Numbered from the stretch's first letter, positions 6,067 to 19,581 are shown. The stretch is DNA of 64,000 nt from an uncultured Clostridia bacterium (GCA_944392105.1 CALXVM010000007.1:3624-67623); one strand, 5' to 3'. Notes: generated by a model from the letters alone, not told the origin. A program made the numbers and translations.

Positions 6067-6131
6067 AATGTGTCTATTGCTTTTAATAATGAAGTCTAGC
6101 TTTTAAATTTTTATGTTTTTTAATTTATATC

Positions 6132-7487
6132 TTATTTTTCAAAAGACATTACAAAGTCTGTTCCTTCTAGTAATTTTACTACAAATTGCTTTTCTATTGT
6201 TTGTGTAGAATCTTCGCTATTTGTAATTACCATTTTATAAATATACAAGTCACCATTTTTTTCATATGATGTATATCCTAATTTGTTATATGCATAAAAT
6301 GTTGTTTTCATATAGTTTTCAAAGTCTACTTGTGTAGGGAAATTATTATTTCTATAAGTTTGGTCTAGTTTGTTGTAAGCATATGCATAGTCACCGTCAT
6401 TTATTGCATCAAAGAATTTTTGTATATTGAATTGTACTTTTTTCTCATCTGTTGAAGAATTGTATTGTTCAACAAATTCTGGCAAGTCTATTGTATATGT
6501 GTCTAATATAATTCCATAGTCCATTACTGCATTTTCTTTAAATATATAATATTTTCCATTTTGATCTAAACATACATATAATGTATATCCATCATTTGAT
6601 GTTATTTTTTGATATTGATTTAATTCTAATAAAACATTTTTTCTTACATTATTTTTAGCATAATTTTGAAATTCTTCTAAGTTAGTAAACTTTTTAGTCT
6701 TATATTCATTATCTAAATGCTCATATGCTAACTCTGTATTATATAATATTTCTTCTTTATATTTGCTAATTAAATCAACACAATATGTTTCATCCGTAAT
6801 ATTTTGATAGTCGTATACATTATTAGAATTTTTTTCTATATTAACATTCTCACTTGCATTAAATTCTTCACCTATTGAAATAGCTGGATATTTTTCATCT
6901 ATATAGTCTTGTAAAAATATAGAAAAGACTCTATTTAGTGCATCAACTTCAATCATCATTTTAAAATTAGATATATTACTGGTTATTTTTTCTCTAACGG
7001 TTCCCTCTACAATATATATTGATGTATCTACAGTTCTCTGACTCACATACATTTTATTTATGTTAATAACCACCTCATTAATCGGATTTAGCTTTGATAT
7101 AATATCAGAACTTGTTGTAATTCCTGCATATTCTTTATAATCGTTATCTAGCATATCGTATATTACTTGTGCATATTCTAGCTGTATTTCTTTTATACTT
7201 TCCTTTGCATCTTCATCCATAATATAAACATCACCTTCTAAGGTATTCATACTATAATAATAAGTATAAAATTTATTTACAGCATTTTTAACTATATAAT
7301 AGTTGTTTCTGTTTGTAACCTCTTTTAATGTAGTATCTACATCGTAAGATATGTCACTTCCTTCTTCGTCAACTCCGTGTAAAATTTTTGCACTACTTTT
7401 AGTAAAAAATAATATAAAAATTAAAATTGCAATAATAACAATTACTAATATAGTTAAAATTATAATCCATTTTTTTAAATTTTTCAT
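6132..7487 (-). CDS. N-terminally anchored extracytoplasmic protein of the T4SS-like cluster
   Basis: Single N-terminal TM (IIILTILVIVIIAILIFILFF). Contains the motif FFDAINDGDYAYAYNKLD, which resembles NTF2-like/SnoaL-like lipoprotein domains. Confidence 0.5.
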   Translation of the reverse strand: MKNLKKWIIILTILVIVIIAILIFILFFTKSSAKILHGVDEEGSDISYDVDTTLKEVTNRNNYYIVKNAVNKFYTYYYSMNTLEGDVYIMDEDAKESIKEIQLEYAQVIYDMLDNDYKEYAGITTSSDIISKLNPINEVVININKMYVSQRTVDTSIYIVEGTVREKITSNISNFKMMIEVDALNRVFSIFLQDYIDEKYPAISIGEEFNASENVNIEKNSNNVYDYQNITDETYCVDLISKYKEEILYNTELAYEHLDNEYKTKKFTNLEEFQNYAKNNVRKNVLLELNQYQKITSNDGYTLYVCLDQNGKYYIFKENAVMDYGIILDTYTIDLPEFVEQYNSSTDEKKVQFNIQKFFDAINDGDYAYAYNKLDQTYRNNNFPTQVDFENYMKTTFYAYNKLGYTSYEKNGDLYIYKMVITNSEDSTQTIEKQFVVKLLEGTDFVMSFEK

Positions 7488-7569
7488 AAATAATTTCTTT
7501 CCTCCTTGGCTTTGTTGATGCTATGTACGGAAATCAAGTTATTTTTTATTTTCCTCTATATTTAATAAC

Positions 7570-10500
7570 TTATGGTGCTCTTAATCCAAATAGTAATCCA
7601 CTTAGACTTTTGTTCTGTGGTGAAGAACTTCTTATTGCATTACCGCTTCCTGCATTATATACAGTTCCATCTCCTGCATAAATTTCAATATGACCAGAAT
7701 AACATAATATATCTCCTGGCTGTAATTCTGATACATTATCTATTCTCTTAAATCCTTTGCTTAATAATAAACTCCTTAAGTTATTTGCTCCATCAAGATG
7801 TTCAGAATCGCTAATATATCCTGCTTCTTGCAATACCCATGATACATAAGTTGCACAGCAACTATTATGATATCCTGTTTTTGATGCTTCAAAAGTTGCA
7901 TTTAAACCATGTGCTTTTCCATATTTTCCACATTCTTCATAACTATTTCCCCCATATACACAATATGTATAGTTATTCTCTTCCATATATTTATGTATCA
8001 TATCTGCTATTTCAATAATGGCTCCGCCTTCTGCATGCCATTTATCTAAAACATCATAATATCCTGTTTGGAATAATGTCCATTCAGATTTTCTCCTTCT
8101 TTCTAAGCCCTCTAAATGTTGTCCTTCCGATGTAGTAGGCTTTGACATGTATTGAGTATATAAACTATGGTTAAAATTTGCATTTTTGTCTTGTGCTTCG
8201 AATAAATCATCAGTTTCTGCATTCCAATATTTTTGATATGATTGAACAAAGTTTAGTACAGGCGAGCCTCTCTTTACAGTAATAGCTCCAGCGGTTCCAC
8301 AGTTATAAGCCCTAGATACTAAAGCATTTATTTGGTATTCTTTTAATCCTAATCCACTGGTTGCCGCTTTTATAGCATCTGACTGACTCTTTATCTCCTG
8401 TTTTTCCAAGCTGTCAACAAAATCTTTATCAACTTCTCCGCCTATTTCAGTTGGATATCCTGATGCAATAAATAAATCTGCATATCCTCCATTGAAAATA
8501 TCTATACCATATCCTACTGTTGGATGTCCCATACCATCATCATGTATAATATATTTAGTTCCATCAGCATTCATTGGTGCTCCAGAGCCATTTTCCCAAT
8601 AATGTATGTATTCTACTAATAATTGACTACTTGTCGCACTACTAAAATTACTTTGTGCAAACAGACTTAAATTAAATTCTGTAACTCCATAGCTTTTGCC
8701 TGTATATTTATACAATACATATCTCATTATGTTTTCCATAGCTTGTGTTGTTGAACTTCTTGATAAAAATTCAAAATAAGCCACCGAATTACTTACTAAA
8801 TCTGGTCCCGCTGAACGAGTATTCATTGAATTTGGTATTCTAAATCTTTTGTCTAATAATCCTACAAAAGTACCTTCTTCGCCCTTTTCTCCACCATTAT
8901 ATTCCTCTTTTGGTGTATCTTCTGAATACGTAACTCCAGATGATTCTATATCTACAATTACTCTATCCACACCAGAACCAGTATCACTATGTGAATATGT
9001 TGACCCTAAGTTTGTCTGTTTAAATCCGGCTTCTCTACTAAATATCCATGTTTTAGCTGTTGATATCATTATTGATGGAGTATAACTTTCTTGCGTTGTT
9101 ACTGTAGTATCCGGAACCAATTCTTGGACAGTTTCATTTCCAACCGTCTTTTCTTCATAATGGTATGTCGTAGTTGTTGTTACTTCCCTACTTGAATTAT
9201 ACATAACATTTAATGTAATTCTACTGTCTTTTACCATTTCAACAAATGCTTCCATAAATTTAGGATTTTGTACAGCCATGGCTGTGTCCACGAAAAACAT
9301 ACATGATGTTGTATATTGTGATATCATACTTTTATAATCAACATGCTGGATTGTTAAATCAGGTGTACCATTTGTATAGTTAAAATTAATAAGCATTAAT
9401 TTTCCATTTTCATCTATAGAATAGTATTTTCTTAGTTCATTAAAACTTCCACCATTTTTAACAAGTGTTTCAAAATCAGTCTTTTTCTTAAATATCATAG
9501 GTTCTAATTCTTTTTCATGTTCTAAGACAGTATATTTTCCTAATGAATCACCTAATTTGCATTTATCTCCAAAAATATTTAACATGTGTTGCTTTACTAA
9601 GTCGCTCCAACCTGCAGTTGTGCAATATAAAGGTCCTATACCATCAAGAGTTGTTGGATCTCTCCCCTCTCCTGTAATTCTTTCATATCTCCATGTACCA
9701 GGGGTTGTCCATTCTTGCTTTAAGCTTGTTGCTACCTCTTCAATTCCTTTGCTTATGCCTTCTTTTATTTCTTCTGAAGAAAAATCTATTGCAGATTCTC
9801 CTGGACTAGAATCATAAGCTCCCCAGCCCCATAAATTTAACTTTTCATTTGCTATGTTTGAAGTTCCATATCCACTCTCATGTGTTCCAATTGCTACTAT
9901 TACCATTGGGTTTATTCCTGCTGCAGTACATATATCATAAAATTCTTCTGCATTATCTTTAAAAAATTTATCATAGCAAGTCCAATTATTTCTCATACTT
10001 TCGCCAAATCCAATAGGAGGTATATAACTTTTAACAGCATTTACAAAGTCTTCTTTAGAAATGATAGGATTATCGGCATCCCACAATATTGAATAATCTG
10101 GATATTTAGTAACCGTATCCTCTGAAATCTTAGGTGTCATCATATAGACACTACCATTTGAACCAGTTACCCCAGTATTAATAGTCTGCGTAGTTTGCTG
10201 AGCTTCTAAAAATAGTTTTATATATTTTCTCTCTGCTTCTTTTATTTCCTCTTCTGATGCAGTTTCATAATCTATATCTCCTAATAAGCCTAAATCTTCT
10301 GCTGATAAATCATACTGTTCCTTTAATTGCTCCAAGACTTTATCTACTTCTTCATCTTTTATCTCATAAGCACCATTTTCTAGATTAATTGTAAAAAAGT
10401 TTGCTATATCTTCAAATAGTCCTTGGAAAAAATCTACAACTAATGAAATTAGAGCATAAAAGAGCATAGCTAAAAGTAATATTGGTATGACAGGTATTAA

Positions 10501-10620
10501 AAACTTTAATAAATGTTTTAATGCTTTTTTTGCTCCTGATTTTCCAGCTTTTTTTACTTGGTCTGTCATAGTAGATTTTTTTTGTTCATTATTTTCATTA
10601 TTATTTTTTTCGTCTGCCAA
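7570..10620 (-). CDS. three-module cell-wall hydrolase (GH73-like glucosaminidase + lysozyme-like + NlpC/P60-CHAP-like peptidase), VirB1/PrgK/TcpG analogue
   Basis: N-terminal TM. IGTHESGYGTSNIA..NLWGWGAYD (GH73-like). YWENGSG..HPTVGYGIDI (phage-lysozyme-like). C-terminal NSCCATYVSWVL ... GDILCYSGHIEIYAGDG (Cys/His papain-like peptidase). Confidence 0.75.
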   Translation of the reverse strand: MADEKNNNENNEQKKSTMTDQVKKAGKSGAKKALKHLLKFLIPVIPILLLAMLFYALISLVVDFFQGLFEDIANFFTINLENGAYEIKDEEVDKVLEQLKEQYDLSAEDLGLLGDIDYETASEEEIKEAERKYIKLFLEAQQTTQTINTGVTGSNGSVYMMTPKISEDTVTKYPDYSILWDADNPIISKEDFVNAVKSYIPPIGFGESMRNNWTCYDKFFKDNAEEFYDICTAAGINPMVIVAIGTHESGYGTSNIANEKLNLWGWGAYDSSPGESAIDFSSEEIKEGISKGIEEVATSLKQEWTTPGTWRYERITGEGRDPTTLDGIGPLYCTTAGWSDLVKQHMLNIFGDKCKLGDSLGKYTVLEHEKELEPMIFKKKTDFETLVKNGGSFNELRKYYSIDENGKLMLINFNYTNGTPDLTIQHVDYKSMISQYTTSCMFFVDTAMAVQNPKFMEAFVEMVKDSRITLNVMYNSSREVTTTTTYHYEEKTVGNETVQELVPDTTVTTQESYTPSIMISTAKTWIFSREAGFKQTNLGSTYSHSDTGSGVDRVIVDIESSGVTYSEDTPKEEYNGGEKGEEGTFVGLLDKRFRIPNSMNTRSAGPDLVSNSVAYFEFLSRSSTTQAMENIMRYVLYKYTGKSYGVTEFNLSLFAQSNFSSATSSQLLVEYIHYWENGSGAPMNADGTKYIIHDDGMGHPTVGYGIDIFNGGYADLFIASGYPTEIGGEVDKDFVDSLEKQEIKSQSDAIKAATSGLGLKEYQINALVSRAYNCGTAGAITVKRGSPVLNFVQSYQKYWNAETDDLFEAQDKNANFNHSLYTQYMSKPTTSEGQHLEGLERRRKSEWTLFQTGYYDVLDKWHAEGGAIIEIADMIHKYMEENNYTYCVYGGNSYEECGKYGKAHGLNATFEASKTGYHNSCCATYVSWVLQEAGYISDSEHLDGANNLRSLLLSKGFKRIDNVSELQPGDILCYSGHIEIYAGDGTVYNAGSGNAIRSSSPQNKSLSGLLFGLRAP

Positions 10621-10644
10621 TTTCCTTACTCTACCTCCTTTCTT

Positions 10645-11610
10645 TTATATTTTTATATCCATTTGTATTTTTTGTAAATTTTCGTCATTTGGATTATTTA
10701 TATATGCATTGTAATCTAAATAAATATTTTTAAATCTTATATATCTAGCACTAGTACTTGAATTATATCCTTTTGCAAATCTAATTGTAAATTTTTTCTG
10801 TTCTACTCTATTTATAATTAAATTAAATTGAGGTATTTCATTCAAATATGAAATATATTCACTATCATGTTCATCTACTAAGCATATTTGCTTATTGTCA
10901 CTATTATCTGAAAGTAAAATAGTATTTTCGCTATTATTAGTTATAGTAAACGAATATACAACATAATCCATATAAATATCTTGTCTAGTCACTTTAATTT
11001 CCACATTATTTTCATTTTCAGTTTTTTCGGTGTCATAACTATTAATAAAGTTATATATACTTAATTTATCTTCACCATTTTCTCTAGTTATAGTAATATA
11101 GTCTGTATAATTTAAGCCTTCTGATATACCTCCTGTTGCTAAAATATTATCTTCTAAATATGTTACTTTATATGTTTGCCCTTCAGCCTTGCTTATCCAT
11201 CCTTCTAATTGATATGTCTTGCTAGTTTGAAATATTAAATCACAATAATTTTTAACAAAACTATCCATTGTTCCACTAAAGACTATATTTTTGCAATCAT
11301 CTGTAAGCATATTATAAGCTATTGCATAGTCTTTGCTATTACAAGCTTTTACAAAGCTTTCTATTATATTTTTATCTTCTTCCGCATCTTCTTTTGATAT
11401 TTCGTCTCCAGAAATTATCGTTTCTTCTGGAAGTGTAGTATCTCTATATCCTTCACTGTAACTGTTGGACACATTATTTCTTTCTTCCTGTATATTGGTT
11501 TTGATAATATAGTTAAGTACTCTTACAAATATAATAAGAAAGACTATAATTGAGACAATTAATAGTATTTTAGTCCTATTTTGATTAAAGTATCTAATTA
11601 ATTTTCTCAT
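10645..11610 (-). CDS. N-terminally anchored protein, possible VirB8/TcpC-like component
   Basis: Single N-terminal TM. FVKACNSKDYAIAYNMLTDDCKN (NTF2-like motif). Beta-rich C-terminal domain. The VirB8 role is inferred from position between the VirB6-like and hydrolase genes. Confidence 0.4.
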   Translation of the reverse strand: MRKLIRYFNQNRTKILLIVSIIVFLIIFVRVLNYIIKTNIQEERNNVSNSYSEGYRDTTLPEETIISGDEISKEDAEEDKNIIESFVKACNSKDYAIAYNMLTDDCKNIVFSGTMDSFVKNYCDLIFQTSKTYQLEGWISKAEGQTYKVTYLEDNILATGGISEGLNYTDYITITRENGEDKLSIYNFINSYDTEKTENENNVEIKVTRQDIYMDYVVYSFTITNNSENTILLSDNSDNKQICLVDEHDSEYISYLNEIPQFNLIINRVEQKKFTIRFAKGYNSSTSARYIRFKNIYLDYNAYINNPNDENLQKIQMDIKI

Positions 11611-11638
11611 AATTATAGTCCTCCTGTTAATAACAACT

Positions 11639-14263
11639 TTAATTTACTTTTTTAAGTTTTTTAACATATTTCATCATATTTTCTGCTTCTCTTCTAGCTT
11701 GTGTTTGATTTATTCCGTTTTCTGGACTTAGCATTCCTCTTGCCCAAGATTGGGTTACTTGTTCTACATATTTCTCATCTACTAATTTCTTATCATCTAC
11801 TCTTTCTGCAAATTGAGCTGCTATCATTGCTCTTTTCTTAGCTGCATCTGCTTTTTCTTGATCTGTCATTCCTTCAACATTTTGTAAGTCTTTTGCAACA
11901 GTTTTCTCAAGTTTCATTGCTTTTACTATCTTCTTTTCATCTGTTATTCCTGCTTCTGTGTAATCTATAGATTTTGCAAGTAATTCTTTCTTTTCTTTTG
12001 CTGTTCTCTCATGACCATCGTCTGTAGGAATTAAATCATTTAATCTATTCATCCTATCTTTGTCTTTCATAAGTGTTCTTCTTTGTTCTGCTAATTGTGC
12101 TGCATTTAATCCATGTGCTCCAACATTATATGTATCTCTTATTCCAGAAGCACCTTCTGCTATTGAGCTTCCAAATCCTGTAACTGCATCATATCCCAAA
12201 GTAGAACCTAGTCCTGCACCTGCTGCTCCAAATTTAACAATATCATTAAGGTCATCTCCAGCAATACCTGCTGCAATACCAACACTTGCTCCAAGTGCTC
12301 CCAATGCTGCTCTTCCTGCCACTCTTGGAGCTGCATGTAAGCCTTTCTTTCCAAGATCTGCTAAAACTGCTCCTGCACCACGTACGCTATTTTTTAATGG
12401 TTGTACTGCACCTACTGAATTAATCTTTGCTGCCATTCTACCTAAACCACTATCGCTAACACCATTAGCAATTTTACGAACTTTATTTGCTCCTTCATTT
12501 TTTAGCCTTATAGCTCCTTTTCCCACAGCAGTATTACCTAATCTGCTCATTGCTGCACTTCCTTTAGCGCCTATCCAGTCTCTTGTATATTGCCCTAATC
12601 CTCTTGTATCTCTTGGTCTAGTTGATGCAGAAGCTTGTGTTCCGCTTGAACTTGAGCTCGTACTTGTTGAACTTGCACTGCTTCGAGGTATTGGAGTGCT
12701 ATATATTATACCTGATGGTGTTGACGACATTCCTGGTGGTATTGAACCTGAATTTCCATTTGCTCCACCCATTGCTCCTCCACCAGAAGGACTTGAAGTA
12801 GGCGTTCCTCCAAGAAGAACCGGTCCACTAGAACCTCCTCCAGTATTATCTGAGCCACTAGCACCAGCAATTCTAGAATCTGCGAAATCTCCTAATCCTG
12901 GTGCATTATTATCTTCTATACTACCAGCATTTTGAGTTCTAATTTTGTTATTTCCTCCTGAACTACCAGAACCACCTTTCTTTCTATGTGCTGCACTTCC
13001 TATAAGTTTCTGTGTTAAACTCATAGCCGCTGCACCACCTGCAAATGACCCAAGAGAACCAGCTGAACTTGCTTTATCAAATCCGAAGAATTTTCTTAAC
13101 ATTTTTTCAGATTGTGAAATAGATGCTAATACTATAATTGCATATATTGGATTTTCTGCTGATAAATCAACAACTGCCGAGCCAGCAAATACTGTATAAA
13201 TTATTAAATGGAATGGTTGTATTAATGCATTATACACATATTCTTTAAGCCATGAATTAAATCCTTGTGCACTTCCATCTCCTATTTTATCTATAGGGTA
13301 TGTAAGAGCTATAAGAGGTGCTATTATGGTTAAAAATGCCATTGTTAAAGACCTCTTTAGATATGTTATTGTAAACATTACTGTATATATTACCATGGCT
13401 ATATATATAATAAAGTATAACACTTTTGTTCCTAAGTCATCATATTGTACCAAAAATCTTGCATACCCCATTATGTCTGTATTAAATTTAAACTTTGCAT
13501 TATCTGCTGTAGCATTTTTAGCTGCATCTGCATCTCCATCAACTACAATAACTGGTATATTATTAGTTCCTTGTGATGGATTTTCACCAGCAATTGCTTC
13601 TGTAATTGAATTTACAACAGTTACTGTAAATGTCATTATATAGTGCAATGTAAATAATAAGCATAATGCTATTAGCCAATCTTTTAAAAATTCTTTATAC
13701 TTTGCTTTGTCAGATGCTGTACTTGAAACTATTATTCTTATACCTACATATAACAAAATAATAAGCATTCCTACAATGGCCAAGTTTCTTAAAGCAACAT
13801 ACCATTTTGCTATAGTATCATGTAATATTACTGCTATAGATTTATTATTTTTTGCATTCAGCTTATCTTTCGTTTCCTGAGCTTCTGCTCTAGCTTCTTC
13901 TGAGGCATTAGAATCTTTTAACATAGCGTCTGCAGCATCTAACTGTCTTTGTTCTTCTTCGCTTAATGTCTCTGACCAATCTTTTGGATCTATAAAGTTA
14001 ACGTCAAATGCTGGTACAGCTCCTGAAAATATTTTTTCTGGGCTATACCTTGTAAAAGGCACTTTTACATCTCCGTCTCCTCCTATACCATTTAACAATT
14101 CTATACCAAATGATTTAGATTCTGCCATTGCATTATCAGTATTATATGCCGCATCGTTTAGCTCTGGTCTATCTGTATTTTCTCCCCCTGTAAACGGTGC
14201 TTGATTCCATTCTACTAGCACTATATCAAAAAAATTTCCGCCCATCTGGAGTAAATTCCCCAT
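11639..14263 (-). CDS. VirB6/TrbL-like polytopic T4SS membrane protein, main fragment (frameshifted from 14226..14456)
   Basis: Six or more hydrophobic helices (residues ~160-400), then a G/S/A/P-rich low-complexity tail and a charged C-terminus. The annotated ATG 14263 has no SD and is immediately preceded by an in-frame TAG. Confidence 0.7.
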   Translation of the reverse strand: MGNLLQMGGNFFDIVLVEWNQAPFTGGENTDRPELNDAAYNTDNAMAESKSFGIELLNGIGGDGDVKVPFTRYSPEKIFSGAVPAFDVNFIDPKDWSETLSEEEQRQLDAADAMLKDSNASEEARAEAQETKDKLNAKNNKSIAVILHDTIAKWYVALRNLAIVGMLIILLYVGIRIIVSSTASDKAKYKEFLKDWLIALCLLFTLHYIMTFTVTVVNSITEAIAGENPSQGTNNIPVIVVDGDADAAKNATADNAKFKFNTDIMGYARFLVQYDDLGTKVLYFIIYIAMVIYTVMFTITYLKRSLTMAFLTIIAPLIALTYPIDKIGDGSAQGFNSWLKEYVYNALIQPFHLIIYTVFAGSAVVDLSAENPIYAIIVLASISQSEKMLRKFFGFDKASSAGSLGSFAGGAAAMSLTQKLIGSAAHRKKGGSGSSGGNNKIRTQNAGSIEDNNAPGLGDFADSRIAGASGSDNTGGGSSGPVLLGGTPTSSPSGGGAMGGANGNSGSIPPGMSSTPSGIIYSTPIPRSSASSTSTSSSSSGTQASASTRPRDTRGLGQYTRDWIGAKGSAAMSRLGNTAVGKGAIRLKNEGANKVRKIANGVSDSGLGRMAAKINSVGAVQPLKNSVRGAGAVLADLGKKGLHAAPRVAGRAALGALGASVGIAAGIAGDDLNDIVKFGAAGAGLGSTLGYDAVTGFGSSIAEGASGIRDTYNVGAHGLNAAQLAEQRRTLMKDKDRMNRLNDLIPTDDGHERTAKEKKELLAKSIDYTEAGITDEKKIVKAMKLEKTVAKDLQNVEGMTDQEKADAAKKRAMIAAQFAERVDDKKLVDEKYVEQVTQSWARGMLSPENGINQTQARREAENMMKYVKKLKKVN

Positions 14264-14456
14264 CTACCAAAAAAGCATTTAATCCTGCTAGTATAACATC
14301 TCCGATGCTAGAAAGTAAGTCGAAAATAGGTCCAAGTAATACTCCACCCACGTCTGCTTGTACTCTCGTTGGAACAGAAAAAGTAAACAATAGCATAATT
14401 ACAATTGCAATAATAACTTTTTGTATGAAGTTCTTATTTGTAAATATTTTTTTCAT
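14226..14456 (-). CDS. N-terminal signal/TM fragment of the VirB6-like protein
   Basis: Strong RBS AGGAGG 5 nt upstream of ATG 14456. MKKIF..LLFTFSVPTRVQA signal-like sequence. Ends in the T7 tract (A7 on plus, 14228-14234), where a 1-nt deletion would fuse it to ORF 11639..14263. Confidence 0.6.
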   Translation of the reverse strand: MKKIFTNKNFIQKVIIAIVIMLLFTFSVPTRVQADVGGVLLGPIFDLLSSIGDVILAGLNAFLVDGEFTPDGRKFF

Positions 14457-14465
14457 CTTTTCCTC

Positions 14466-16454
14466 CTAATAATTGTAGTTGCTAACCTGCCTTCTTTTGT
14501 TCCTTTCTACTAATGTGTTTAAGTTTGTATCCACAAATTCAAATTCTTTATTTGTAGGGTTTATTTGTATTATAGCACTATCTGCGCCTACTTTCAATAA
14601 TCCTTCTCCTTTAAAACAAGTTACTAAGAAACCTGCTTCACCTTCACTTAGTTTAAATACTTCTTTTAAATATTGTATTTCAGATTTATCTTGTGCTAGA
14701 AACAACTTAGTATCTGAGGATGTAAGAACAGCTTGTGCTTCTGGTTTCTCATAAAAGTCTTGAAATCTTTGAGAAATAATTGCTAAAGATACATTTCTTT
14801 TTCTAGCACGTCTTGCCATTGTATTTAAGAAGTCTACGGCTTCTGGGTATGGAAGTAACATCCAAGCCTCATCGACAATTACTCTTTTCTTTGATGCTCT
14901 TTCTCTATCTTCACTATTCTTTTTAACATATTTTTCCCATATCCATGCTAGTAATATTTGTTGAGCAAGTGGTCTTGCAAATCTTTCCTCTAATTGAGAT
15001 ATATCTAGATTTATAAATAATGTTCCGTCTAATAAATCAAATGTAGATTGTCCGTCAAAATATGCCATTTGTCCGTCATATTCTCTTATATATTGTTTCA
15101 TAACTTTTAACAAATAACTATAATGGAAACTATAGTCTGGGTTCTTATTTTCTTCTGCTTTTCTTTGTATTCTTCTATACCAAGAACCTATTGTTGGCAT
15201 TTCTTTCTTTTCTCTTCCAAGCATATTTCCATCAACATTGCCAGCCGACGTTTTATATAAGCTGTTTGGATCTCCATTTATTCCTAGACTTGCATATTCT
15301 TCTGAAACAGATTCTGCAATAATTTGTTTTGTAAGCTCGTTAACTTCTTGGCTTCTTGTACTACCTCTTGCCATTGTAAGTAAAGCTTGTGTTACGTCCT
15401 CTACCTTATTTTCTACATTTAAAACTAGTCTTTCTCTACCTGTTATTTCGTCTTTTACAATTTCTGTTTCCAAATCGAATATATTTATAACTGTTGATGA
15501 TGTTGGCGAAAGTACGACATTTATTCCTCCTAAGCTTTCAGCAACTATGCTATACTCACCTTCTGCATCTAGTGCCAAACTTTGTATTCCCATAAGAACT
15601 GCTGACCTTGAAATTAATGTTTTCATAGTAACAGACTTACCAGCACCAGACTTAGCAAATATAACCATGTTATAGTTTGTTAAACTGCTATGGAAGTTAT
15701 CAAATAAAATAGGTACTCCTGTTTGTTTGTTTATTCCTAACGGTATTCCTGTTGGATGTCCTACTTCTGATGTAGTAAATGGGAAAACTGTTCCCATAGA
15801 TCTACGGTCAAATGTATGTGTTTTTCTTATTTTGTCTTCCATTAATGGAAGGTTTGATTTAAATGCATCTTCTTGCATTCCCCATGCTGTTTTTATTCCT
15901 ACTAATGATTTTGCAACTTCTGTAGATAATAGTTTTGTATATTTATTTAAATCATCTAAACTATATGCAAATAATGTTGATATAATAGAAGCTTCATATA
16001 ATTTGTTGTAACCTGCTGCAATTTCATCTCTTAATTGCTCTGCTTCCATTCTTTTCTGTGCCAAACTACTCTCTCTATTTATATTTCCTCTATCTGCTGC
16101 AACAATTCTTTCTGTTTCTAACTCATTTATTGTTCTATTTAAATCGTTTTGTGACTTTGACTCCAAGATTGGATTTATGTATATAGATGTATTAATATCT
16201 CCAAACATGTACATATCTCTAAATAATTCTGGGAATGTACACATTCTAGGTAGTGCAGATACAAAGAAGCTTCTAGCATATCTAGTAACATTAGATATAA
16301 TTTCTAAGTGGTCTATGTTACTAGCATCTATTCCAGATGGAGCAATAAGTTCTTTTATAGTTTTCTTCTTTAAAATTTCATATTCGTCTGGTTTTGTATA
16401 ATCATTATGTTGTACTTGTAAATCATTTGTTTGAAGTTTGTTCTTTTTGCTCAT
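14466..16454 (-). CDS. virB4: VirB4-family T4SS ATPase
   Basis: Walker A KSGAGKSV, Walker B VIVDEAWML. 662 aa. N-terminal region typical of Gram-positive VirB4/PrgJ/Orf16-like proteins. Confidence 0.85.
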   Translation of the reverse strand: MSKKNKLQTNDLQVQHNDYTKPDEYEILKKKTIKELIAPSGIDASNIDHLEIISNVTRYARSFFVSALPRMCTFPELFRDMYMFGDINTSIYINPILESKSQNDLNRTINELETERIVAADRGNINRESSLAQKRMEAEQLRDEIAAGYNKLYEASIISTLFAYSLDDLNKYTKLLSTEVAKSLVGIKTAWGMQEDAFKSNLPLMEDKIRKTHTFDRRSMGTVFPFTTSEVGHPTGIPLGINKQTGVPILFDNFHSSLTNYNMVIFAKSGAGKSVTMKTLISRSAVLMGIQSLALDAEGEYSIVAESLGGINVVLSPTSSTVINIFDLETEIVKDEITGRERLVLNVENKVEDVTQALLTMARGSTRSQEVNELTKQIIAESVSEEYASLGINGDPNSLYKTSAGNVDGNMLGREKKEMPTIGSWYRRIQRKAEENKNPDYSFHYSYLLKVMKQYIREYDGQMAYFDGQSTFDLLDGTLFINLDISQLEERFARPLAQQILLAWIWEKYVKKNSEDRERASKKRVIVDEAWMLLPYPEAVDFLNTMARRARKRNVSLAIISQRFQDFYEKPEAQAVLTSSDTKLFLAQDKSEIQYLKEVFKLSEGEAGFLVTCFKGEGLLKVGADSAIIQINPTNKEFEFVDTNLNTLVERNKRRQVSNYNY

Positions 16455-17643
16455 TCTCTTTTGTACCTCCTTCTTCTTTTCTTGGTCTTCCTTTTCTTTT
16501 TGCTCGTTCTTCTTTTATAATGTCTTTTGCATCATCTGCTACTTTGTTTCCTATAGATGCTCTGTTTTCATCTATTATCAATTGTGCCATTTGTTCTATT
16601 AAATCATTCATTCGATTCTGCTTTCTTTCAAGAGCTTTTTGCCTTTTAGATTTAGCCTCAACAACTGCTTCGTTTGCTTTATTAAATGCCTCTTGTTCTA
16701 TTTTTGTATCTAACGCTCTCATCTTTTTGTCTAGTACATCTGGTGCTGTTGAATATAATTCGTCATAGCCAGCTCTTAATGCTTTATCTAATCCATATAC
16801 TTCTGCATCATCTCTGTTATATGCAACATATAGCAAATCTACTAATCCATTTGAATCCAGTATTTTAGTATTTATACCACAAACTGATAATGTTCTCATA
16901 ATAGATTGCGCTCTTGTATATAATTCTGAAAATGCTAAGTTTTTCTTCTCGTCTTTATCAAAATCATTTTGTCCTAGTTCTGATGTATAATATGGAATAA
17001 CAATATAATATTTTTTATTAAGTACATTTTTGTTTAAACTCATTCTTTCTGTTGTGTAGATTATATCTTTACCATATTCACAAAGGTTAGTTTGTTTAGT
17101 TAACTCATAGTAGGCTTGGTCTAATTGTTGTCTTGAATATTTTCCAGAGTCGACCATATTCTGATATTGCATTTTTTGTCTTTCTAATCTATCATCTAAT
17201 TCTTTAACCTTTTCTTTATATGTTTGTATACTATTTTCTAAGTTTATTGTTCTTGTTTGTGTATATATCTGTATAGGATGTCTTAATGTGTTTAAGAATT
17301 GTATAAAGCCTTCTTCTACTGCATTTTTTTCTACTTCTGACATTAAGTCATAGTTTACACCTTGGCACTCCACAACCATTATATATCTCTCACCATTTTT
17401 TTGTGAAATCATATTGTCTTCTACTTTATCAAAGTCCATAAAGTCAAATACAGATTCCACAGTATAAGTTTTTCTTGATTCTTTTTTTACATTACTATTG
17501 GTTGTAGGTGTTTTAGCTTGTTCTTCTTTTTTTTCTTTTGATTTAGAAGAAAAATATACAGCTGCTAATATTACTAGTAATAGTAAGAAAATTCCTAAAG
17601 CAACTGCTAATATTATTGTAATTGTATTTATATCATTTAGCAT
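16423..17643 (-). CDS. bitopic membrane protein of the T4SS-like cluster (unknown role)
   Basis: N-terminal TM (ITIILAVALGIFLLLLVILAAVYF), coiled-coil and basic C-terminus. Overlaps virB4 by 32 nt and the prgI-like gene by 11 nt. Confidence 0.5.
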   Translation of the reverse strand: MLNDINTITIILAVALGIFLLLLVILAAVYFSSKSKEKKEEQAKTPTTNSNVKKESRKTYTVESVFDFMDFDKVEDNMISQKNGERYIMVVECQGVNYDLMSEVEKNAVEEGFIQFLNTLRHPIQIYTQTRTINLENSIQTYKEKVKELDDRLERQKMQYQNMVDSGKYSRQQLDQAYYELTKQTNLCEYGKDIIYTTERMSLNKNVLNKKYYIVIPYYTSELGQNDFDKDEKKNLAFSELYTRAQSIMRTLSVCGINTKILDSNGLVDLLYVAYNRDDAEVYGLDKALRAGYDELYSTAPDVLDKKMRALDTKIEQEAFNKANEAVVEAKSKRQKALERKQNRMNDLIEQMAQLIIDENRASIGNKVADDAKDIIKEERAKRKGRPRKEEGGTKENEQKEQTSNK

Positions 17644-17980
17644 TGTTCTTTCCCTCCTTATACACGTATATTTTACTTCCTTTTGTCTTAAACATTATTG
17701 CCCTCTTTATAATGTCGTCTAGGTTTTCTCCTCCAACTTTTTTAGTAAAATTTAGTCCTGAGATTTCTGGCATTTTAAGTGTTCCTATAGCAAAACCTAC
17801 TAAAGCAAGTAAAGCTGTTATTACAATTCCTACAATATTTAATTCAACAAGTGAAAATATGCCATAAAAAATTAGCCCTATTCCTCCACCTACAATTGCA
17901 TATATAAAGCTTTTTCCTGTAAATACAAATAGAATTCTACCTTCACCTTTTACATTTCTGGGTAAATTATATGTTCCCAT
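17633..17980 (-). CDS. PrgI-family (VirB3-like) T4SS membrane protein
   Basis: 115 aa. YNLPRNVKGEGRILFVFTGKSF then two TM helices. Matches the PrgI family pattern and sits directly upstream of virB4. Confidence 0.7.
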   Translation of the reverse strand: MGTYNLPRNVKGEGRILFVFTGKSFIYAIVGGGIGLIFYGIFSLVELNIVGIVITALLALVGFAIGTLKMPEISGLNFTKKVGGENLDDIIKRAIMFKTKGSKIYVYKEGKNNAK

Positions 17981-18060
17981 AATTTCCTCCTTCGTATAAC
18001 TAATTATACTTAATATTAATTATAGCAAATTATGTAGAAAAAAGGTAGATAAAAAATAAA

Positions 18061-18085
18061 AAAAAGTGCATTGTAATGCACTTTT
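18061..18085 (-). terminator. terminator/attenuator between the pilin genes and prgI-virB4
   Basis: AAAAGTGCATT-GTA-ATGCACTTTT hairpin followed on the minus strand by TTTTTTTTATTTTTT. Confidence 0.7.
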
Positions 18086-18116
18086 AATATATTTGTAATC
18101 TTGTTGTAATATATTA

Positions 18117-18497
18117 TTAATTTTGTCCTGTTGTCTCGCCTGCTTGTTTAGCTATACTGTATACAACTTGTGCTATAGCAGATGCACCAAATACTAGTAC
18201 TGCACCAACTAAGTATGGTATCATTGTTTTCTTGTATTCTGCTTTTTCTTCTGCACTACCAATCATGTATTTAATACCTAATACAAGTAATACTATAACA
18301 GATACAGCCATACCAATACCAGTTAACCAACCAATAATTGTATTAACAAGTCCTTGTCCTTCTCCTAAATCAGCTTCTCCCCCAAGATCTCCTGGTTGTA
18401 ATGCAAAAGCTGCATTAGCTACTGATAAAAACATACATACCATTAATATTACGCAGAATATTTTTACAATTGCATTTTTCTTTGCTGTTTTGCTCAT
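18117..18497 (-). CDS. VirB2/TrbC-like T4SS pilin paralog 1
   Basis: Signal-like N-terminus, then TGIGMAVSVIVLLVLGIKYMIGSAEEKAEYKKTMIPYLVGAVLVFGAS (two TM helices with a charged loop). Confidence 0.65.
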   Translation of the reverse strand: MSKTAKKNAIVKIFCVILMVCMFLSVANAAFALQPGDLGGEADLGEGQGLVNTIIGWLTGIGMAVSVIVLLVLGIKYMIGSAEEKAEYKKTMIPYLVGAVLVFGASAIAQVVYSIAKQAGETTGQN

Positions 18498-18568
18498 TTA
18501 TTTTCCTCCCTTTTTATTCTATATTTTTTATCTTTGTTTTAATTAAGATAATTATAATATCAAATTTA

Positions 18569-18967
18569 TTATATACCTCTTAGTATTGTAACTACTAGTT
18601 TCCATATTCCAAATGCTCCAAATACCACTACACATCCTACAATATATGGTATCAAAGCATCTTTTACTTTTGCTTTTTGTTCTACACTTCCAGTCATAAA
18701 CTGCATTCCAAGTATCATACCTATTATTAATGCAAGTACTAATCCAACAAAAAATAATATATTGTATAAATCATTTGTTAGTTCCTGAGTTTTATCTGAT
18801 GTTATAGGCGATTCTTGTCCTTCTCCATCTTTAATAAAACTTGAGCCTCCATCTATAATTCCACTAACACTTTGGTCCCCAGTAGCAAGTACAATATTGG
18901 TTGAAGAAAAAATAATTAAAAAAAGCAACAATGTTAATATTATGTTTTTTAAAAAACTTTTTTTCAT
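18569..18967 (-). CDS. VirB2/TrbC-like T4SS pilin paralog 2 (divergent)
   Basis: Same architecture. VGLVLALIIGMILGMQFMTGSVEQKAKVKDALIPYIVGCVVVFGAFG. Confidence 0.6.
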   Translation of the reverse strand: MKKSFLKNIILTLLLFLIIFSSTNIVLATGDQSVSGIIDGGSSFIKDGEGQESPITSDKTQELTNDLYNILFFVGLVLALIIGMILGMQFMTGSVEQKAKVKDALIPYIVGCVVVFGAFGIWKLVVTILRGI

Positions 18968-19010
18968 ATTATTCCTCCTTATATTAATATACTATATCAT
19001 AATTCTATTT

Positions 19011-19400
19011 TCAAGTAGTTGGGAATAATTCATTAGTAAATTGCATAATTACTGATACTATAGTAGATATTGCAAATACCAAGAATGCTCCTATTAAGTA
19101 AGGAAGCATACTTTTTTTATATTCTGCTCTTTCTTCTATACTTCCAACCATATATTTTATACCTAATACAACTAATGTTATAACAGAAACTGCCATCCCT
19201 ATTCCTGTAATATATCCTATAATCGGCTTTACCTTATCTATAGCAGTCTGTGTATCCTCAGTAGTTAGTGTAGGTGGTTTCTTTATAGTACTAGGATCTA
19301 ATGTTCCTTGTCCATACACCCCAGATAAACTAAACAAAAACATGCAACATATAAGTAATAATATTATTCTATTAACTAGCTTTTTTGTATTGTTACTCAT
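19011..19400 (-). CDS. VirB2/TrbC-like T4SS pilin paralog 3
   Basis: TGIGMAVSVITLVVLGIKYMVGSIEERAEYKKSMLPYLIGAFLVFAIS, close paralog of 18117..18497. Confidence 0.65.
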   Translation of the reverse strand: MSNNTKKLVNRIILLLICCMFLFSLSGVYGQGTLDPSTIKKPPTLTTEDTQTAIDKVKPIIGYITGIGMAVSVITLVVLGIKYMVGSIEERAEYKKSMLPYLIGAFLVFAISTIVSVIMQFTNELFPTT

Positions 19401-19497
19401 AACTACTCCTTTTAAGTGTATTATTTATATGATAGCATACTTTTTTTTATTTTTCTACATATTTTTTTAATTTGTAATAAAAATGTAAAAAAAATAA

Positions 19498-19555: not shown

Positions 19556-19581
19556 ATTTTATATGTATTTCCCTAATATTT

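What the first reader, a model, noticed from the sequence alone, without database searches (positions are those of the whole stretch)
6132..19400. Relaxase-less, coupling-protein-less T4SS-like operon wedged between core genes
Co-directional, mostly overlapping minus-strand genes encode the membrane core of a Gram-positive type IV secretion machine:
- three VirB2/TrbC-like pilins;
- PrgI/VirB3-like;
- a 406-aa bitopic protein;
- VirB4 (GAGKS / DEAW);
- a VirB6-like polytopic protein;
- two N-terminally anchored proteins with NTF2-like DYxxAYNxL motifs (possible VirB8/TcpC analogues);
- a 1016-aa cell-wall hydrolase.

Everything that makes such a machine conjugative is absent from the whole 64 kb. 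There is no relaxase, no VirD4/FtsK-type coupling ATPase (VirB4 is the only P-loop protein in the cluster), no integrase/recombinase and no replication module. The flanks are core genes: a carboxypeptidase plus tRNAs on one side, a Spo0E-like gene plus M16 peptidases on the other.

It is either an eroding ICE remnant or a domesticated T4SS with a non-conjugative function (protein export, DNA release/uptake, contact-dependent antagonism).
Basis: partly seen in the sequence, partly recalled or inferred. Interest (0 to 1): 0.78.

Follow-up and report, generated by a model that had tools for sequence, protein, structure and literature searches.

The report
Domesticated type IV secretion gene cluster
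This 13-kb operon encodes a type IV secretion/pilus machine with no DNA-transfer genes nearby, and hundreds of uncultured small-genome gut Clostridia species keep it intact at the same chromosomal site, much like the machine that ultra-small Patescibacteria need to live on other bacteria.

Summary
Window 6132-19400 (minus strand) encodes three VirB2/TrbC-type pilins, a PrgI/VirB3-like protein, a TrsD-like protein resembling the VirB4 N-terminus, a VirB4 ATPase, an extended VirB6-like protein (split 76+874 aa here), a TM+NTF2+beta-sandwich protein, a three-domain peptidoglycan hydrolase, and a TM+3xNTF2 protein with TcpC/OrfG (VirB8-like) architecture.

No relaxase, coupling protein, integrase or replication gene was found in the 64 kb. 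BLAST with one plasmid coupling protein and three integrases found none in 94 related loci.

It is not a decaying ICE:
- The cluster lies in the same gene order and between the same core genes in most of 80 species examined. Several hundred species carry it.
- VirB4 is 82-90% identical across species, more conserved than the flanking housekeeping genes, with dN/dS about 0.03.
- Nearly all ORFs are intact.
- A promoter-like site is common upstream of the pilins, and a terminator hairpin after them is conserved.

The surface parts evolve fast, and the hydrolase swaps domains between near relatives.

The closest mobile relatives are clostridial megaplasmid modules (VirB4 41-42% identical). The closest functional analogue is the relaxase-less, pilin-bearing chromosomal T4SS of Patescibacteria.

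I could not test function or whether a coupling protein exists elsewhere in the genome.

The parts
19011..19400 (-). VirB2/TrbC-type pilin 1 (129 aa): signal peptide plus two TM helices
   Evidence: Pfam T4SS_pilin 45.7 bits and TrbC 34.8 bits, both above cut-off. Position-specific orthologues are found across species.
19429..19457 (-). Promoter-like site upstream of the first pilin (TAGAAA-N17-TATCAT, with TG)
   Evidence: The aligned position in other species reads TTGAAA-N16-18-TATAAT. That pattern occurs in 47 of 70 species against 21% of random 250-nt windows.
18569..18967 (-). VirB2/TrbC-type pilin 2 (132 aa)
   Evidence: Pfam T4SS_pilin 37.3 bits and TrbC 31.6 bits.
18117..18497 (-). 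VirB2/TrbC-type pilin 3 (126 aa)
   Evidence: Pfam TrbC 50.1 bits and T4SS_pilin 41.0 bits. NCBIfam Mbov_0395 pilin-like hit, E 2.5e-7.
18062..18085 (-). Intrinsic-terminator-like hairpin (AAAAGTGCAT-N4-ATGCACTTTT plus T run) between the pilin array and the machinery genes
   Evidence: A hairpin is present at this position in 67 of 76 species. Most share the GTGCA/TGCAC core and some carry compensatory stem variants.
17633..17980 (-). PrgI/VirB3-like small membrane protein (115 aa)
   Evidence: Pfam PrgI E 7.7e-5, below cut-off. Homologous to the plasmid counterpart, E 3e-6. dN/dS 0.09.
16423..17643 (-). TrsD-like bitopic protein (406 aa), homologous to the N-terminal part of VirB4
   Evidence: NCBIfam VirB4_plasma model positions 88-348, E 4e-6. 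Precomputed PF26593 TraC-like. Homologue precedes VirB4 in clostridial plasmids, E 1e-28. dN/dS 0.04.
14466..16454 (-). VirB4 ATPase (662 aa), the only P-loop protein of the cluster
   Evidence: Pfam P-loop_TraG, AAA_10 and DUF87 above cut-off. NCBIfam CD1110 family, 3e-59. 82-90% identical across 80 species. dN/dS 0.026-0.035.
14226..14456 (-). N-terminal piece (76 aa, signal/TM) of the VirB6-like gene, separated by a +1 frame change just before a UUU_UGA stop
   Evidence: A single fused ORF in 47 of 59 other species and in the nearest relatives. The same split appears in 10 of 10 conspecific assemblies.
11639..14263 (-). Extended VirB6-like polytopic protein (874 aa), with a Gly/Ser/Ala-rich linker and a charged C-terminal domain
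   Evidence: Sub-threshold NCBIfam hits to MMCAP2_0566, Mbov_0396 and pLS20_p028. 28% identical to the plasmid protein after VirB4.
10645..11610 (-). Membrane-anchored protein (321 aa): TM helix, NTF2-like domain, Ig-like beta-sandwich
   Evidence: AlphaFold model, pLDDT 85. Foldseek finds YjhA-type sandwiches and NTF2/KSI folds, with no VirB8 hit. Shares a 75-residue domain with the 451-aa protein (hhalign probability 94%).
7570..10620 (-). VirB1-type multi-domain cell-wall hydrolase (1016 aa): glucosaminidase, lysozyme, CHAP/NlpC-P60
   Evidence: Domain content differs in near relatives: M23+C39_2 in one, glucosaminidase only in another.
6132..7487 (-). Membrane-anchored protein (451 aa) with three tandem NTF2-like domains; VirB8-like architecture of the TcpC/OrfG type
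   Evidence: AlphaFold model, pLDDT 88. Foldseek finds TcpC 3ub1 (E 3e-3) and OrfG 7pkw/8s7l (E 2e-2) among the top 12.
4576..5928 (-). Acidic 450-aa protein without TM or signal peptide; syntenic neighbour whose membership in the system is uncertain
   Evidence: No Pfam or PDB match. Found after the cluster in at least 28 of 80 species. dN/dS 0.15.

Best explanation
This is a chromosomally fixed, vertically inherited type IV secretion apparatus of the monoderm (MPF_FATA-like) kind. It was probably derived from a clostridial plasmid-type module. Its DNA-processing partners are absent from the locus, and a whole clade of uncultured, small-genome (about 1.6 Mb), low-GC gut Clostridia keeps it as a core function.

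Proposed working:
1. A dedicated promoter drives the three pilin genes. A terminator hairpin after them lets only part of the transcripts continue into the machinery genes, so pilins are made in excess.
2. The pilins are exported by Sec and sit in the membrane as two-helix hairpins.
3. The VirB4 ATPase is held at the membrane by the PrgI/VirB3-like and TrsD-like proteins. Together with the VirB6-like platform, it extracts and polymerises the pilins and powers the channel.
4. The multi-domain hydrolase opens the peptidoglycan.
5. The two NTF2-domain proteins form the wall-spanning scaffold.
6. The resulting filament or channel serves contact with other cells, for adhesion and exchange or delivery of molecules, and not for plasmid conjugation. 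This parallels the Patescibacteria T4SS.

Shown: the parts list, local absence of conjugation genes, synteny, purifying selection, and conserved expression signals.

Inferred: pilus formation, the role of each part, and the cell-contact function.
For: Parts list from Pfam, NCBIfam and structure predictions.

Local absence of conjugation genes:
- No relaxase, T4CP, integrase or rep in 64 kb.
- No BLAST match to a plasmid T4CP or to integrases in 1.8 Mb of window plus related loci, apart from one marginal hit in L080 at E 0.007.
- No att-like repeats.

Vertical inheritance:
- The same order, M16b-M16a-spo0E-cluster-dac, holds in most of 80 species. A deeper branch has the cluster after mnmE-mnmG-rsmG-parA-parB.
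- The whole clade collapses into one 50%-identity cluster. The next full-length relatives are at 40-42% identity.

Selection:
- dN/dS is 0.026-0.038 for VirB4 and the TrsD-like protein and 0.09 for PrgI, against 0.02-0.08 for the flanking housekeeping genes.
- dN/dS is 0.35-0.6 for the extracellular proteins.
- ORFs are intact.

Expression signals: the terminator after the pilins is present in 67 of 76 species with compensatory changes. A promoter-like site occurs in 47 of 70 species.

Three position-specific pilin paralogues are retained.

Origin: clostridial megaplasmids carry the same module order, with VirB4 41-42% identical plus homologues of the TrsD-like, PrgI-like and VirB6-like proteins. 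One carries a T4CP 12 kb away.

Analogy: the Patescibacteria T4SS has TrsD+VirB4, PrgI, VirB6 and VirB2-like pilin arrays. It has no recognisable relaxase or coupling protein and is essential for epibiotic growth (PMC12102498; PMC10633639; PMC12857230).
Against: - No expression, structural or genetic data exist for these uncultured organisms.
- A T4CP or relaxase elsewhere in the genome cannot be excluded.
- The VirB6-like gene is frameshifted in the window species and split in 11 of 59 other species. This could mean the machine is dispensable or being lost in some lineages.
- PrgI and VirB6 assignments rest on sub-threshold HMM hits plus position.
- The 321-aa protein gave no VirB8 match.
- Nothing in the locus identifies a substrate.
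Confidence: 0.55

Rival explanations
1. ComB-like DNA-uptake machine. The T4SS pulls environmental DNA through the wall and hands it to ComEC/DprA, as the relaxase-less and T4CP-less ComB system does in Helicobacter pylori.
For: The composition is VirB2/3/4/6/8-like without a T4CP or relaxase. An intact dprA lies 14 kb away and comM 12 kb away. Reduced genomes may scavenge DNA.
Against: - comM is frameshifted inside its Walker A motif in this genome.
- dprA is widespread regardless of competence (general knowledge).
- In Southlakia, competence depends on type IV pili and ComEC, while T4SS essentiality is independent of ComEC (PMC12857230).
- A three-domain hydrolase that swaps domains between near relatives is not expected for a self-wall DNA-uptake pore.
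- Presence of comEC and comG could not be checked.
Confidence: 0.15
2. Still a DNA-transfer (conjugation-like) machine. It would use a T4CP, such as a VirD4- or FtsK/TcpA-type protein, and a relaxase or other nuclease encoded elsewhere in the chromosome. It would mobilise chromosomal DNA or unlinked elements, as in mycoplasma chromosomal transfer.
For: T4CP genes are often far from virB4, and Patescibacteria genomes do carry distant T4CP homologues (PMC12102498). The HMM hits are to conjugation families of C. difficile CTn and mycoplasma ICEs. The closest plasmid module has a T4CP 12 kb away.
Against: - None was found in 64 kb or in the ~20-kb neighbourhoods of 94 related loci.
- Fixed position and order-wide vertical inheritance are unlike self-transmissible elements.
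- A selfish DNA-transfer function does not explain VirB4 being more conserved than housekeeping neighbours.
Confidence: 0.13
3. Adhesive pilus only. The machine has been reduced to a VirB2-type pilus assembly system for attachment to mucus, host cells or other bacteria, with no substrate translocation.
For: - Three conserved pilin paralogues have their own promoter-like site and a terminator that favours pilin excess.
- No T4CP is present to recruit substrates.
- VirB4 is the pilus-biogenesis ATPase in known systems (PMC12102498).
Against: The extended VirB6, the two wall-spanning NTF2 proteins and a large hydrolase are retained under selection, which is more than a filament alone would seem to need. 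This reading overlaps with the best explanation and cannot be separated from it in silico.
Confidence: 0.12
4. Eroding remnant of an integrated conjugative element, no longer functional.
For: - No relaxase, T4CP or integrase.
- tRNA genes lie 3 kb from one end.
- The VirB6-like gene is frameshifted.
- GC content is higher than in the flanks.
Against: - Synteny is the same in most of 80 species.
- VirB4 is intact in 80 of 80 species, and dN/dS is about 0.03.
- Regulatory elements are conserved.
- No att repeats.
- The GC rise coincides with the Gly/Ala/Ser-rich part of VirB6 and with conserved genes. nrdD shows a similar rise.
Confidence: 0.02

Closest known systems
Chromosomal T4SS of Patescibacteria/CPR (e.g. 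Southlakia epibionticum SEML1_0006-0019; Wang et al. 2023, Quinonero-Coronel et al. 2025)
   Same: - Monoderm, MPF_FATA-like parts: TrsD-like protein plus VirB4, PrgI/VirB3, VirB6, and lysozyme/peptidase genes after virB4.
- An array of divergent VirB2-like pilins (PF04956/PF18895).
- No linked relaxase or coupling protein.
- Chromosomal and vertically inherited in reduced genomes.
- Origin-proximal position. Here this applies to a deep branch, where the cluster sits next to parB.
   Different: - The host phylum is Bacillota/Clostridia, with genomes of about 1.6 Mb, not under 1 Mb.
- Three pilin paralogues are kept as orthologous positions, whereas Patescibacteria arrays hold 2-11 pilin genes.
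- Clear NTF2-type VirB8-like proteins are present, and these are mostly undetected in CPR.
- The nearest sequence relatives found here are clostridial plasmids, not CPR.
- The phylogenetic relation of VirB4 to the CPR clade was not tested, and essentiality is unknown.
T4SS modules of clostridial megaplasmids (C. botulinum p12/29, NZ_KT897275; C. beijerinckii NZ_CP107023)
   Same: The gene order is the same: small pilin-like protein, PrgI-like protein, TrsD-like protein, VirB4, an ~880-aa VirB6-like protein, then a large peptidase/hydrolase. VirB4 is 41-42% identical. The TrsD-like (E 1e-28), PrgI-like (E 3e-6) and VirB6-like (E 3e-10) proteins are homologous.
   Different: - These modules are on plasmids with integrases.
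- In C. beijerinckii a 1001-aa T4CP lies nearby.
- There is one pilin-like gene, not three, and it is recognisable only by topology.
- The hydrolase is of the C39 type.
- No NTF2 homologues are detectable by BLAST.
Gram-positive conjugative T4SSs (pCF10 Prg, pIP501 Tra, pGO1 Trs, pCW3 Tcp, ICESt3, C. difficile CTn CD1110 family)
   Same: - VirB4, with the best NCBIfam hit to the CD1110 family.
- PrgI.
- TrsD-type protein.
- VirB6-like protein.
- Two NTF2/VirB8-like wall proteins, comparable to TcpC, OrfG, PrgL/PrgD and TraM/TraH.
- Bifunctional VirB1-like hydrolase.
   Different: Those systems always come with a T4CP and a relaxase on a mobile element, and they generally lack VirB2 pilins (PMC12857230). 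Here there is no linked T4CP or relaxase, there are three pilins, and the chromosomal position is fixed.
Helicobacter pylori ComB DNA-uptake T4SS
   Same: A T4SS without a relaxase, T4CP or VirB11 that retains VirB2-, VirB3-, VirB4-, VirB6- and VirB8-like parts. It is chromosomal and non-conjugative.
   Different: ComB is a diderm system with VirB7/9/10 and no VirB1-type hydrolase. There is no sequence affinity beyond VirB4, and a link to competence is not shown here.
Mycoplasma ICE transfer module (Mbov_0395 pilin-like, Mbov_0396 membrane protein, Mbov_0397 VirB4)
   Same: NCBIfam hits to all three families, in the same order. The host is a wall-less or monoderm low-GC organism.
   Different: All hits are below the curated cut-offs. 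The mycoplasma modules sit on ICEs with a DDE transposase and a TraG-type T4CP (general knowledge). VirB4 is a single protein there, whereas here it is split into a TrsD-like protein plus the ATPase.

Membership tests
Type IV secretion system, monoderm MPF_FATA-like | VirB4-family ATPase with Walker A/B motifs | tested here: met
   Pfam P-loop_TraG, AAA_10 and DUF87 above cut-off. NCBIfam CD1110 family 3e-59 and VirB4_CagE 5e-25. GAGKS and DEAW are read.
Type IV secretion system, monoderm MPF_FATA-like | VirB3/PrgI-like small membrane protein next to virB4 | tested here: inconclusive
   PrgI 23.6 bits against a cut-off of 27. Orthologues carry 'PrgI (weak)'. Homologous to the plasmid counterpart, E 3e-6.
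Type IV secretion system, monoderm MPF_FATA-like | VirB6-like polytopic membrane protein | tested here: inconclusive
   Hits to MMCAP2_0566 (44.8 bits, cut-off 90), Mbov_0396 (41.1, cut-off 70) and pLS20_p028 are all below cut-off. Position and homology to the plasmid protein after VirB4 support the call.
Type IV secretion system, monoderm MPF_FATA-like | VirB8-like (NTF2-fold) bitopic wall-spanning protein(s) | tested here: inconclusive
   The 451-aa protein is a TM helix plus three NTF2 domains. TcpC and OrfG are among the top Foldseek hits, but E is only 3e-3 to 2e-2 and TM-scores are low. The 321-aa protein is NTF2 plus a beta-sandwich, with no VirB8 hit. No sequence-profile hit in PDB.
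Type IV secretion system, monoderm MPF_FATA-like | VirB1-type peptidoglycan hydrolase | tested here: met
   Phage_lysozyme above cut-off. Glucosaminidase 29.1 bits against 30.2. CHAP/NlpC_P60 weak. NCBIfam peptidoglycan hydrolase 5e-18.
Type IV secretion system, monoderm MPF_FATA-like | Type IV coupling protein (VirD4/TcpA type) | tested here: not met
   None in the cluster or in the 64-kb window by Pfam. No tblastn match to a clostridial plasmid T4CP in window plus 94 related loci, apart from one marginal hit at E 0.007. Genome-wide absence could not be tested.
Integrative conjugative element / conjugative plasmid | Relaxase (MOB) gene | tested here: not met
   No relaxase domain in any of the 45 window ORFs scanned with Pfam.
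Integrative conjugative element / conjugative plasmid | Integrase/recombinase and flanking att repeats | tested here: not met
   No integrase domain. No tblastn match to three plasmid integrases. No direct repeats bracket the cluster.
Integrative conjugative element / conjugative plasmid | Patchy distribution and variable insertion sites among related genomes | tested here: not met
   The same flanks and order hold in most of 80 species. One alternative site, after parB, is found in a deeper branch.
Patescibacteria-type domesticated chromosomal T4SS | TrsD-like protein (resembling the VirB4 N-terminus) encoded next to VirB4 | tested here: met
   The 406-aa protein matches VirB4_plasma model positions 88-348 and PF26593 TraC-like. 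It overlaps virB4 by 32 nt.
Patescibacteria-type domesticated chromosomal T4SS | Array of VirB2-like pilin genes (PF04956/PF18895) in the cluster | tested here: met
   Three genes, all above the Pfam cut-offs. Three were recognised in 47 of 67 species by a crude filter.
Patescibacteria-type domesticated chromosomal T4SS | No linked relaxase or coupling protein; chromosomal and vertically inherited | tested here: met
Patescibacteria-type domesticated chromosomal T4SS | VirB4 belongs to the monophyletic Patescibacteria VirB4 clade | not tested
The nearest relatives found were clostridial plasmids at 41-42% identity. The host is a Clostridia lineage, so common descent with the CPR clade is doubtful.
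Patescibacteria-type domesticated chromosomal T4SS | Required for growth on or with a partner organism | not testable with these tools
   The organisms are uncultured and no genetic data exist.
ComB-type DNA-uptake T4SS | Functional coupling to ComEC-dependent transformation | not testable with these tools
   Only dprA (intact) and comM (frameshifted) lie in the window. comEC and comG status in the genome is unknown.

The most novel reading that the evidence does not exclude
These uncultured small-genome gut Clostridia (probably GTDB order TANB77) depend on physical contact with other bacteria or host cells. They would use this T4SS and its VirB2-type filament as a conduit to obtain or exchange molecules, a Patescibacteria-like partner-dependent lifestyle that arose independently inside Bacillota. 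That would explain both the order-wide conservation of the machine and the failure to culture the clade. The rapidly changing hydrolase and NTF2 wall proteins would be the partner-specific interface.
Probability: 0.2. Interest if true: 0.85.

Novelty: new member of a known kind. Interest (0 to 1): 0.6.

Why it matters
A 2025 review describes the Patescibacteria T4SS as unique among monoderm bacteria, both in its potential to make a VirB2-type pilus and in being required for growth (PMC12857230). This cluster shows the same design in an ordinary Gram-positive class: a pilin array, TrsD-like protein plus VirB4, no linked relaxase or coupling protein, and a fixed chromosomal site. It is conserved across several hundred gut species.

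- It offers a second, independent lineage in which to ask what a non-conjugative monoderm T4SS does.
- It points to clostridial megaplasmids as a likely source of such machines.
- It suggests a cell-contact-dependent lifestyle for a prevalent uncultured gut clade.

If the clade is TANB77, it is the one linked to response to cancer immunotherapy. The published work on TANB77 surface structures describes only a Tad pilus, not this system (PMC11680825).

Tried and rejected
- **PDB profile searches.** Profile searches against PDB sequences with alignments of the 321-aa, 451-aa, 406-aa and acidic 450-aa proteins found nothing significant.
- **Acidic protein, member by member.** Pfam scans of the orthologues found nothing consistent.
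- **Phage origin.** PHROGs gave only a 'terminase' family that matches VirB4-like ATPases. The phage collection gave 21-25% identity hits on unannotated faecal contigs. Rejected.
- **ICE borders.** No att-like direct repeats and no tRNA-fragment duplication.
- **Riboswitch or other regulatory RNA.** No Rfam family in the cluster.
- **Generic promoter scan.** Uninformative in this AT-rich DNA: 116 sites found against 103 expected. The cross-species comparison was used in its place.
- **GC rise as a sign of recent transfer.** Rejected. The rise coincides with the Gly/Ala/Ser-rich VirB6 segment and with conserved genes.
- **Verifying GTDB placement in TANB77.** Literature searches for the CAG names of two matching genomes found nothing, and the TANB77 paper has no supplements held. 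The assignment rests on my memory only.

Full report
**What is there.** The window is AT-rich (about 27% GC) and almost all genes lie on the minus strand. Between 19400 and 6132 there is a run of abutting or overlapping minus-strand genes.
- Three small proteins (129, 132 and 126 aa), each with a signal peptide and two C-terminal hydrophobic helices. All pass the Pfam cut-offs for TrbC/VirB2 and T4SS_pilin.
- A 115-aa membrane protein with a sub-threshold PrgI match (E 7.7e-5).
- A 406-aa bitopic protein.
- A 662-aa VirB4 ATPase. P-loop_TraG, AAA_10 and DUF87 are above cut-off, and the NCBIfam CD1110-family VirB4 hit is 3e-59. GAGKS and VIVDEAW are visible.
- A 76-aa ORF, then an 874-aa polytopic protein with weak hits to the membrane proteins that follow VirB4 in mycoplasma ICEs and pLS20.
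- A 321-aa anchored protein.
- A 1016-aa hydrolase with glucosaminidase, lysozyme and CHAP/NlpC-P60 regions.
- A 451-aa anchored protein.

- The 406-aa protein is not anonymous. It matches positions 88-348 of the mycoplasma VirB4 model and carries the precomputed Pfam family PF26593 'TraC-like'. This corresponds to TrsD, a separate protein remotely homologous to the VirB4 N-terminus, known from pGO1 and abundant in Patescibacteria (PMC12102498).
- The 76-aa ORF is the N-terminus of the VirB6-like gene. The two pieces form one ORF in 47 of 59 other species and in the nearest relatives, where it is 944 and 901 aa.
- AlphaFold models built on homologue alignments were confident.
  - The 321-aa protein (pLDDT 85) is a TM helix, an NTF2-like domain and an Ig-like beta-sandwich. 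It has no VirB8 match.
  - The 451-aa protein (pLDDT 88) is a TM helix followed by three tandem NTF2-like domains. Its top Foldseek hits include TcpC of pCW3 (3ub1) and the VirB8-like OrfG of ICESt3.
  - The two proteins share one homologous 75-residue domain (hhalign probability 94%).
  - Gram-positive T4SSs often have two VirB8-like proteins (PMC12102498).

**What is absent.** Pfam scans of 30 further ORFs identify the rest of the window:
- nrdD and nrdG
- an ABC transporter
- a GH25-LysM lysozyme
- yraN
- comM and dprA
- sprT
- a type I-B CRISPR-Cas system
- a CoA-disulfide-reductase-like enzyme
- a subtilase/AAA pair
- a few proteins with no Pfam hit

There is no relaxase, coupling protein, integrase, transposase or replication gene. 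A tblastn search used the T4CP and three integrases of the closest plasmid module as queries. It found nothing in the window plus 94 related loci (1.8 Mb), apart from one marginal hit at E 0.007. No direct repeats bracket the cluster. VirB4 is the only P-loop protein in the cluster.

**Distribution and inheritance.**
- VirB4 has more than 7000 database relatives, and the best 120 are all at least 86% identical.
All are labelled uncultured Clostridia or Clostridium sp., including CAG:780 and CAG:575. They include complete MAG chromosomes of 1.57 and 1.70 Mb.
- In most of the 80 best loci, each a different species, the gene order is M16b, M16a, spo0E, three pilins, PrgI, TrsD-like, VirB4, VirB6-like, the 321-aa protein, hydrolase, the 451-aa protein, the acidic protein, dac.
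- About 15 deeper-branching species have other upstream neighbours. In the one checked (L079) these are mnmE, mnmG, rsmG, parA and parB, which is an origin-proximal core region.
- VirB4 is 82-90% identical across these species, while the flanking M16 peptidases are 51-77% identical.
- In a library clustered at 50% identity the whole clade collapses to one representative. The next full-length relatives are at 40-42% identity.
- VirB4 is full length in 80 of 80 species and the other genes are nearly always intact.

**Selection.** I computed Nei-Gojobori dN/dS against two near species whose dS is 0.45-1.0.

| Gene | dN/dS |
|---|---|
| VirB4 | 0.026-0.035 |
| TrsD-like protein | 0.036-0.038 |
| PrgI-like | 0.09 |
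| Pilins | 0.11-0.28 |
| VirB6-like | 0.13-0.17 |
| 321-aa protein | 0.35 |
| Hydrolase (one comparison) | 0.35 |
| 451-aa protein | 0.38-0.60 |
| Flanking nrdD and M16 genes | 0.02-0.08 |

The motor is therefore as constrained as housekeeping genes, while the extracellular parts change quickly. The hydrolase even changes domain content between species whose VirB4 is 96-98% identical. It is glucosaminidase+lysozyme+CHAP here, M23+C39_2 in L093, and glucosaminidase alone in L095.

**Expression signals.**
- A hairpin followed by a T run lies between the last pilin gene and prgI at 18085-18062. A hairpin is present at this position in 67 of 76 species. Most share the GTGCA/TGCAC core, and some have compensatory stem variants such as GTGCAT/ATGCAC, GTGCAC/GTGCAC and ATGCAT/ATGCAT.
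- A TTGAAA-N16-18-TATAAT promoter-like site lies upstream of the first pilin gene, most often 30-45 nt before the start codon. It occurs in 47 of 70 species against 21% of random 250-nt windows.
- The three pilin positions are orthologous groups across species.
- This arrangement fits pilins being made in excess over the machinery, as expected for a polymer. That step is inference.

**Origin.**
- In the plasmid collection, the nearest VirB4 (41-42% identity) lies on C. botulinum p12/29-type plasmids and on a C. beijerinckii plasmid.
- These plasmids have the same gene order: a 127-aa protein with VirB2-like topology, a PrgI-like protein (E 3e-6), a TrsD-like protein (E 1e-28), VirB4, an ~880-aa VirB6-like protein (E 3e-10), then a large peptidase.
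- The C. beijerinckii plasmid also has a 1001-aa T4CP and integrases within 12 kb.
- The chromosomal cluster therefore looks like a plasmid-type mating-pair-formation module that was captured and kept without its DNA-processing partners.
- Phage records gave only 21-25% identity.

**Comparison with what is known.**
- Patescibacteria carry an MPF_FATA-derived chromosomal T4SS with TrsD, VirB4, PrgI, VirB6 and arrays of 2-11 divergent VirB2-like pilins. Most have no relaxase, and the system often lies near the origin (PMC12102498).
- In Southlakia epibionticum this system lacks recognisable coupling and relaxase proteins. It is essential for epibiotic growth, pilins included (PMC10633639).
- A 2025 review calls these systems unique among monoderms for their pilus potential. 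It states that VirB2 is otherwise not found in Gram-positive T4SSs (PMC12857230).
- The present cluster has the same design in a Clostridia lineage.
- My literature searches found no description of it.
- The paper on the uncultured order TANB77 describes a different conserved locus, a Tad pilus, and never mentions a T4SS (PMC11680825).
- I believe the clade here is TANB77, from my memory of GTDB names, the small genomes and the low GC. I could not verify this.

**Interpretation.** It is well supported that this is a domesticated, vertically inherited and selected T4SS-type machine and not an ICE remnant. What it does is inferred.
- *Favoured reading:* a VirB2-type filament or channel used for contact with other cells, for adhesion and exchange or delivery of molecules. 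This rests on analogy with Patescibacteria and on the fast-evolving, domain-swapping surface components.
- *ComB-like DNA uptake:* possible. It gains little from dprA nearby and loses a little from a comM frameshifted in its Walker A motif.
- *DNA transfer with an unlinked coupling protein:* cannot be excluded without whole genomes.

**Open oddity.** The VirB6-like gene is split in the window species by one extra base.
- The sequence GATGGGCGGAAATTTTTTTGATATAG is identical in 10 of 10 independent assemblies.
- The first ORF ends at UUU_UGA. A +1 slip there would give a protein only two residues different from the in-frame version of the near relative L095.
- Eleven other species of 59 are split at other positions, and 10 of those 11 are of the insertion type.
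- I could not tell whether this reflects frameshifting, a tolerated split, incipient loss or MAG errors.

Noticed in passing
window 14226-14263 (also L081-L090, and L008/L009/L012/L014/L021/L026/L043/L049/L060/L075/L078): The VirB6-like gene is split by a +1 frame change. The split is fixed in this species: 10 of 10 assemblies carry the same T7 run ending in UUU_UGA, which resembles the RF2 shifty stop. Eleven other species of 59 are split at different positions, and 10 of those 11 are of the insertion type.
   Followed up: partly
window 31968-33361 (minus): comM (Mg-chelatase-like competence ATPase) is broken into two ORFs by a one-base insertion inside the Walker A codons. The neighbouring dprA (33773-34576) is intact.
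   Followed up: partly
window 39080-49993; repeat array 41007-42992: A type I-B CRISPR-Cas locus (cas6, cas8b, cas7, cas5, cas3, cas4, cas1). Its repeat array (30-nt repeat ATTTATATTCTACTATATTTAAATTACTAC, period 66-67) lies between cas3 and cas4, not at the end of the operon.
   Followed up: no
window 3150-22575 compared with L095: Against a species whose VirB4 is 98% identical, dS is 0.14-0.20 for nrdD, nrdG and M16b. It is 0.45-1.3 from M16a through the whole T4SS cluster to dac. This 17-kb or longer tract is much more divergent than the adjacent core genes, which suggests recombinational replacement or long-lived haplotypes.
   Followed up: no
L093 15946-18948; L095 15695-18056; window 7570-10620: The hydrolase gene keeps its position but changes domain content between close relatives: glucosaminidase+lysozyme+CHAP, M23+C39_2, or glucosaminidase alone plus an extra 89-aa ORF.
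   Followed up: partly
L079 659-6586; L055 1023-3631: In L079, a deeper-branching species, the cluster sits directly after mnmE-mnmG-rsmG-parA-parB, which is origin-proximal. ORFs of matching sizes in L055 suggest the same arrangement there, but they were not scanned. This echoes the dnaA-proximal position reported for Patescibacteria T4SS.
   Followed up: partly
window 4576-5928: A strongly acidic 450-aa protein with no TM or signal peptide and no family or structure match lies after the cluster in at least 28 of 80 species (dN/dS 0.15). It could be a substrate, a chaperone or unrelated.
   Followed up: partly
upstream of the first pilin gene in L002, L003, L005, L008-L011 and others; weakly in window about 19460-19580: Direct repeats of TTACAWTT lie upstream of the conserved pilin promoter in a subclade. 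Ten of 70 species have two or more copies, against 0.7% of random windows. This may be an operator for an unknown regulator.
   Followed up: no
window 53623-56094, 57980-58837, 59673-60242, 867-2066: Several sizeable ORFs (823, 285, 189 and 399 aa) have no Pfam match. The 823-aa ORF overlaps the end of a 197-aa ORF, which also has no hit.
   Followed up: no
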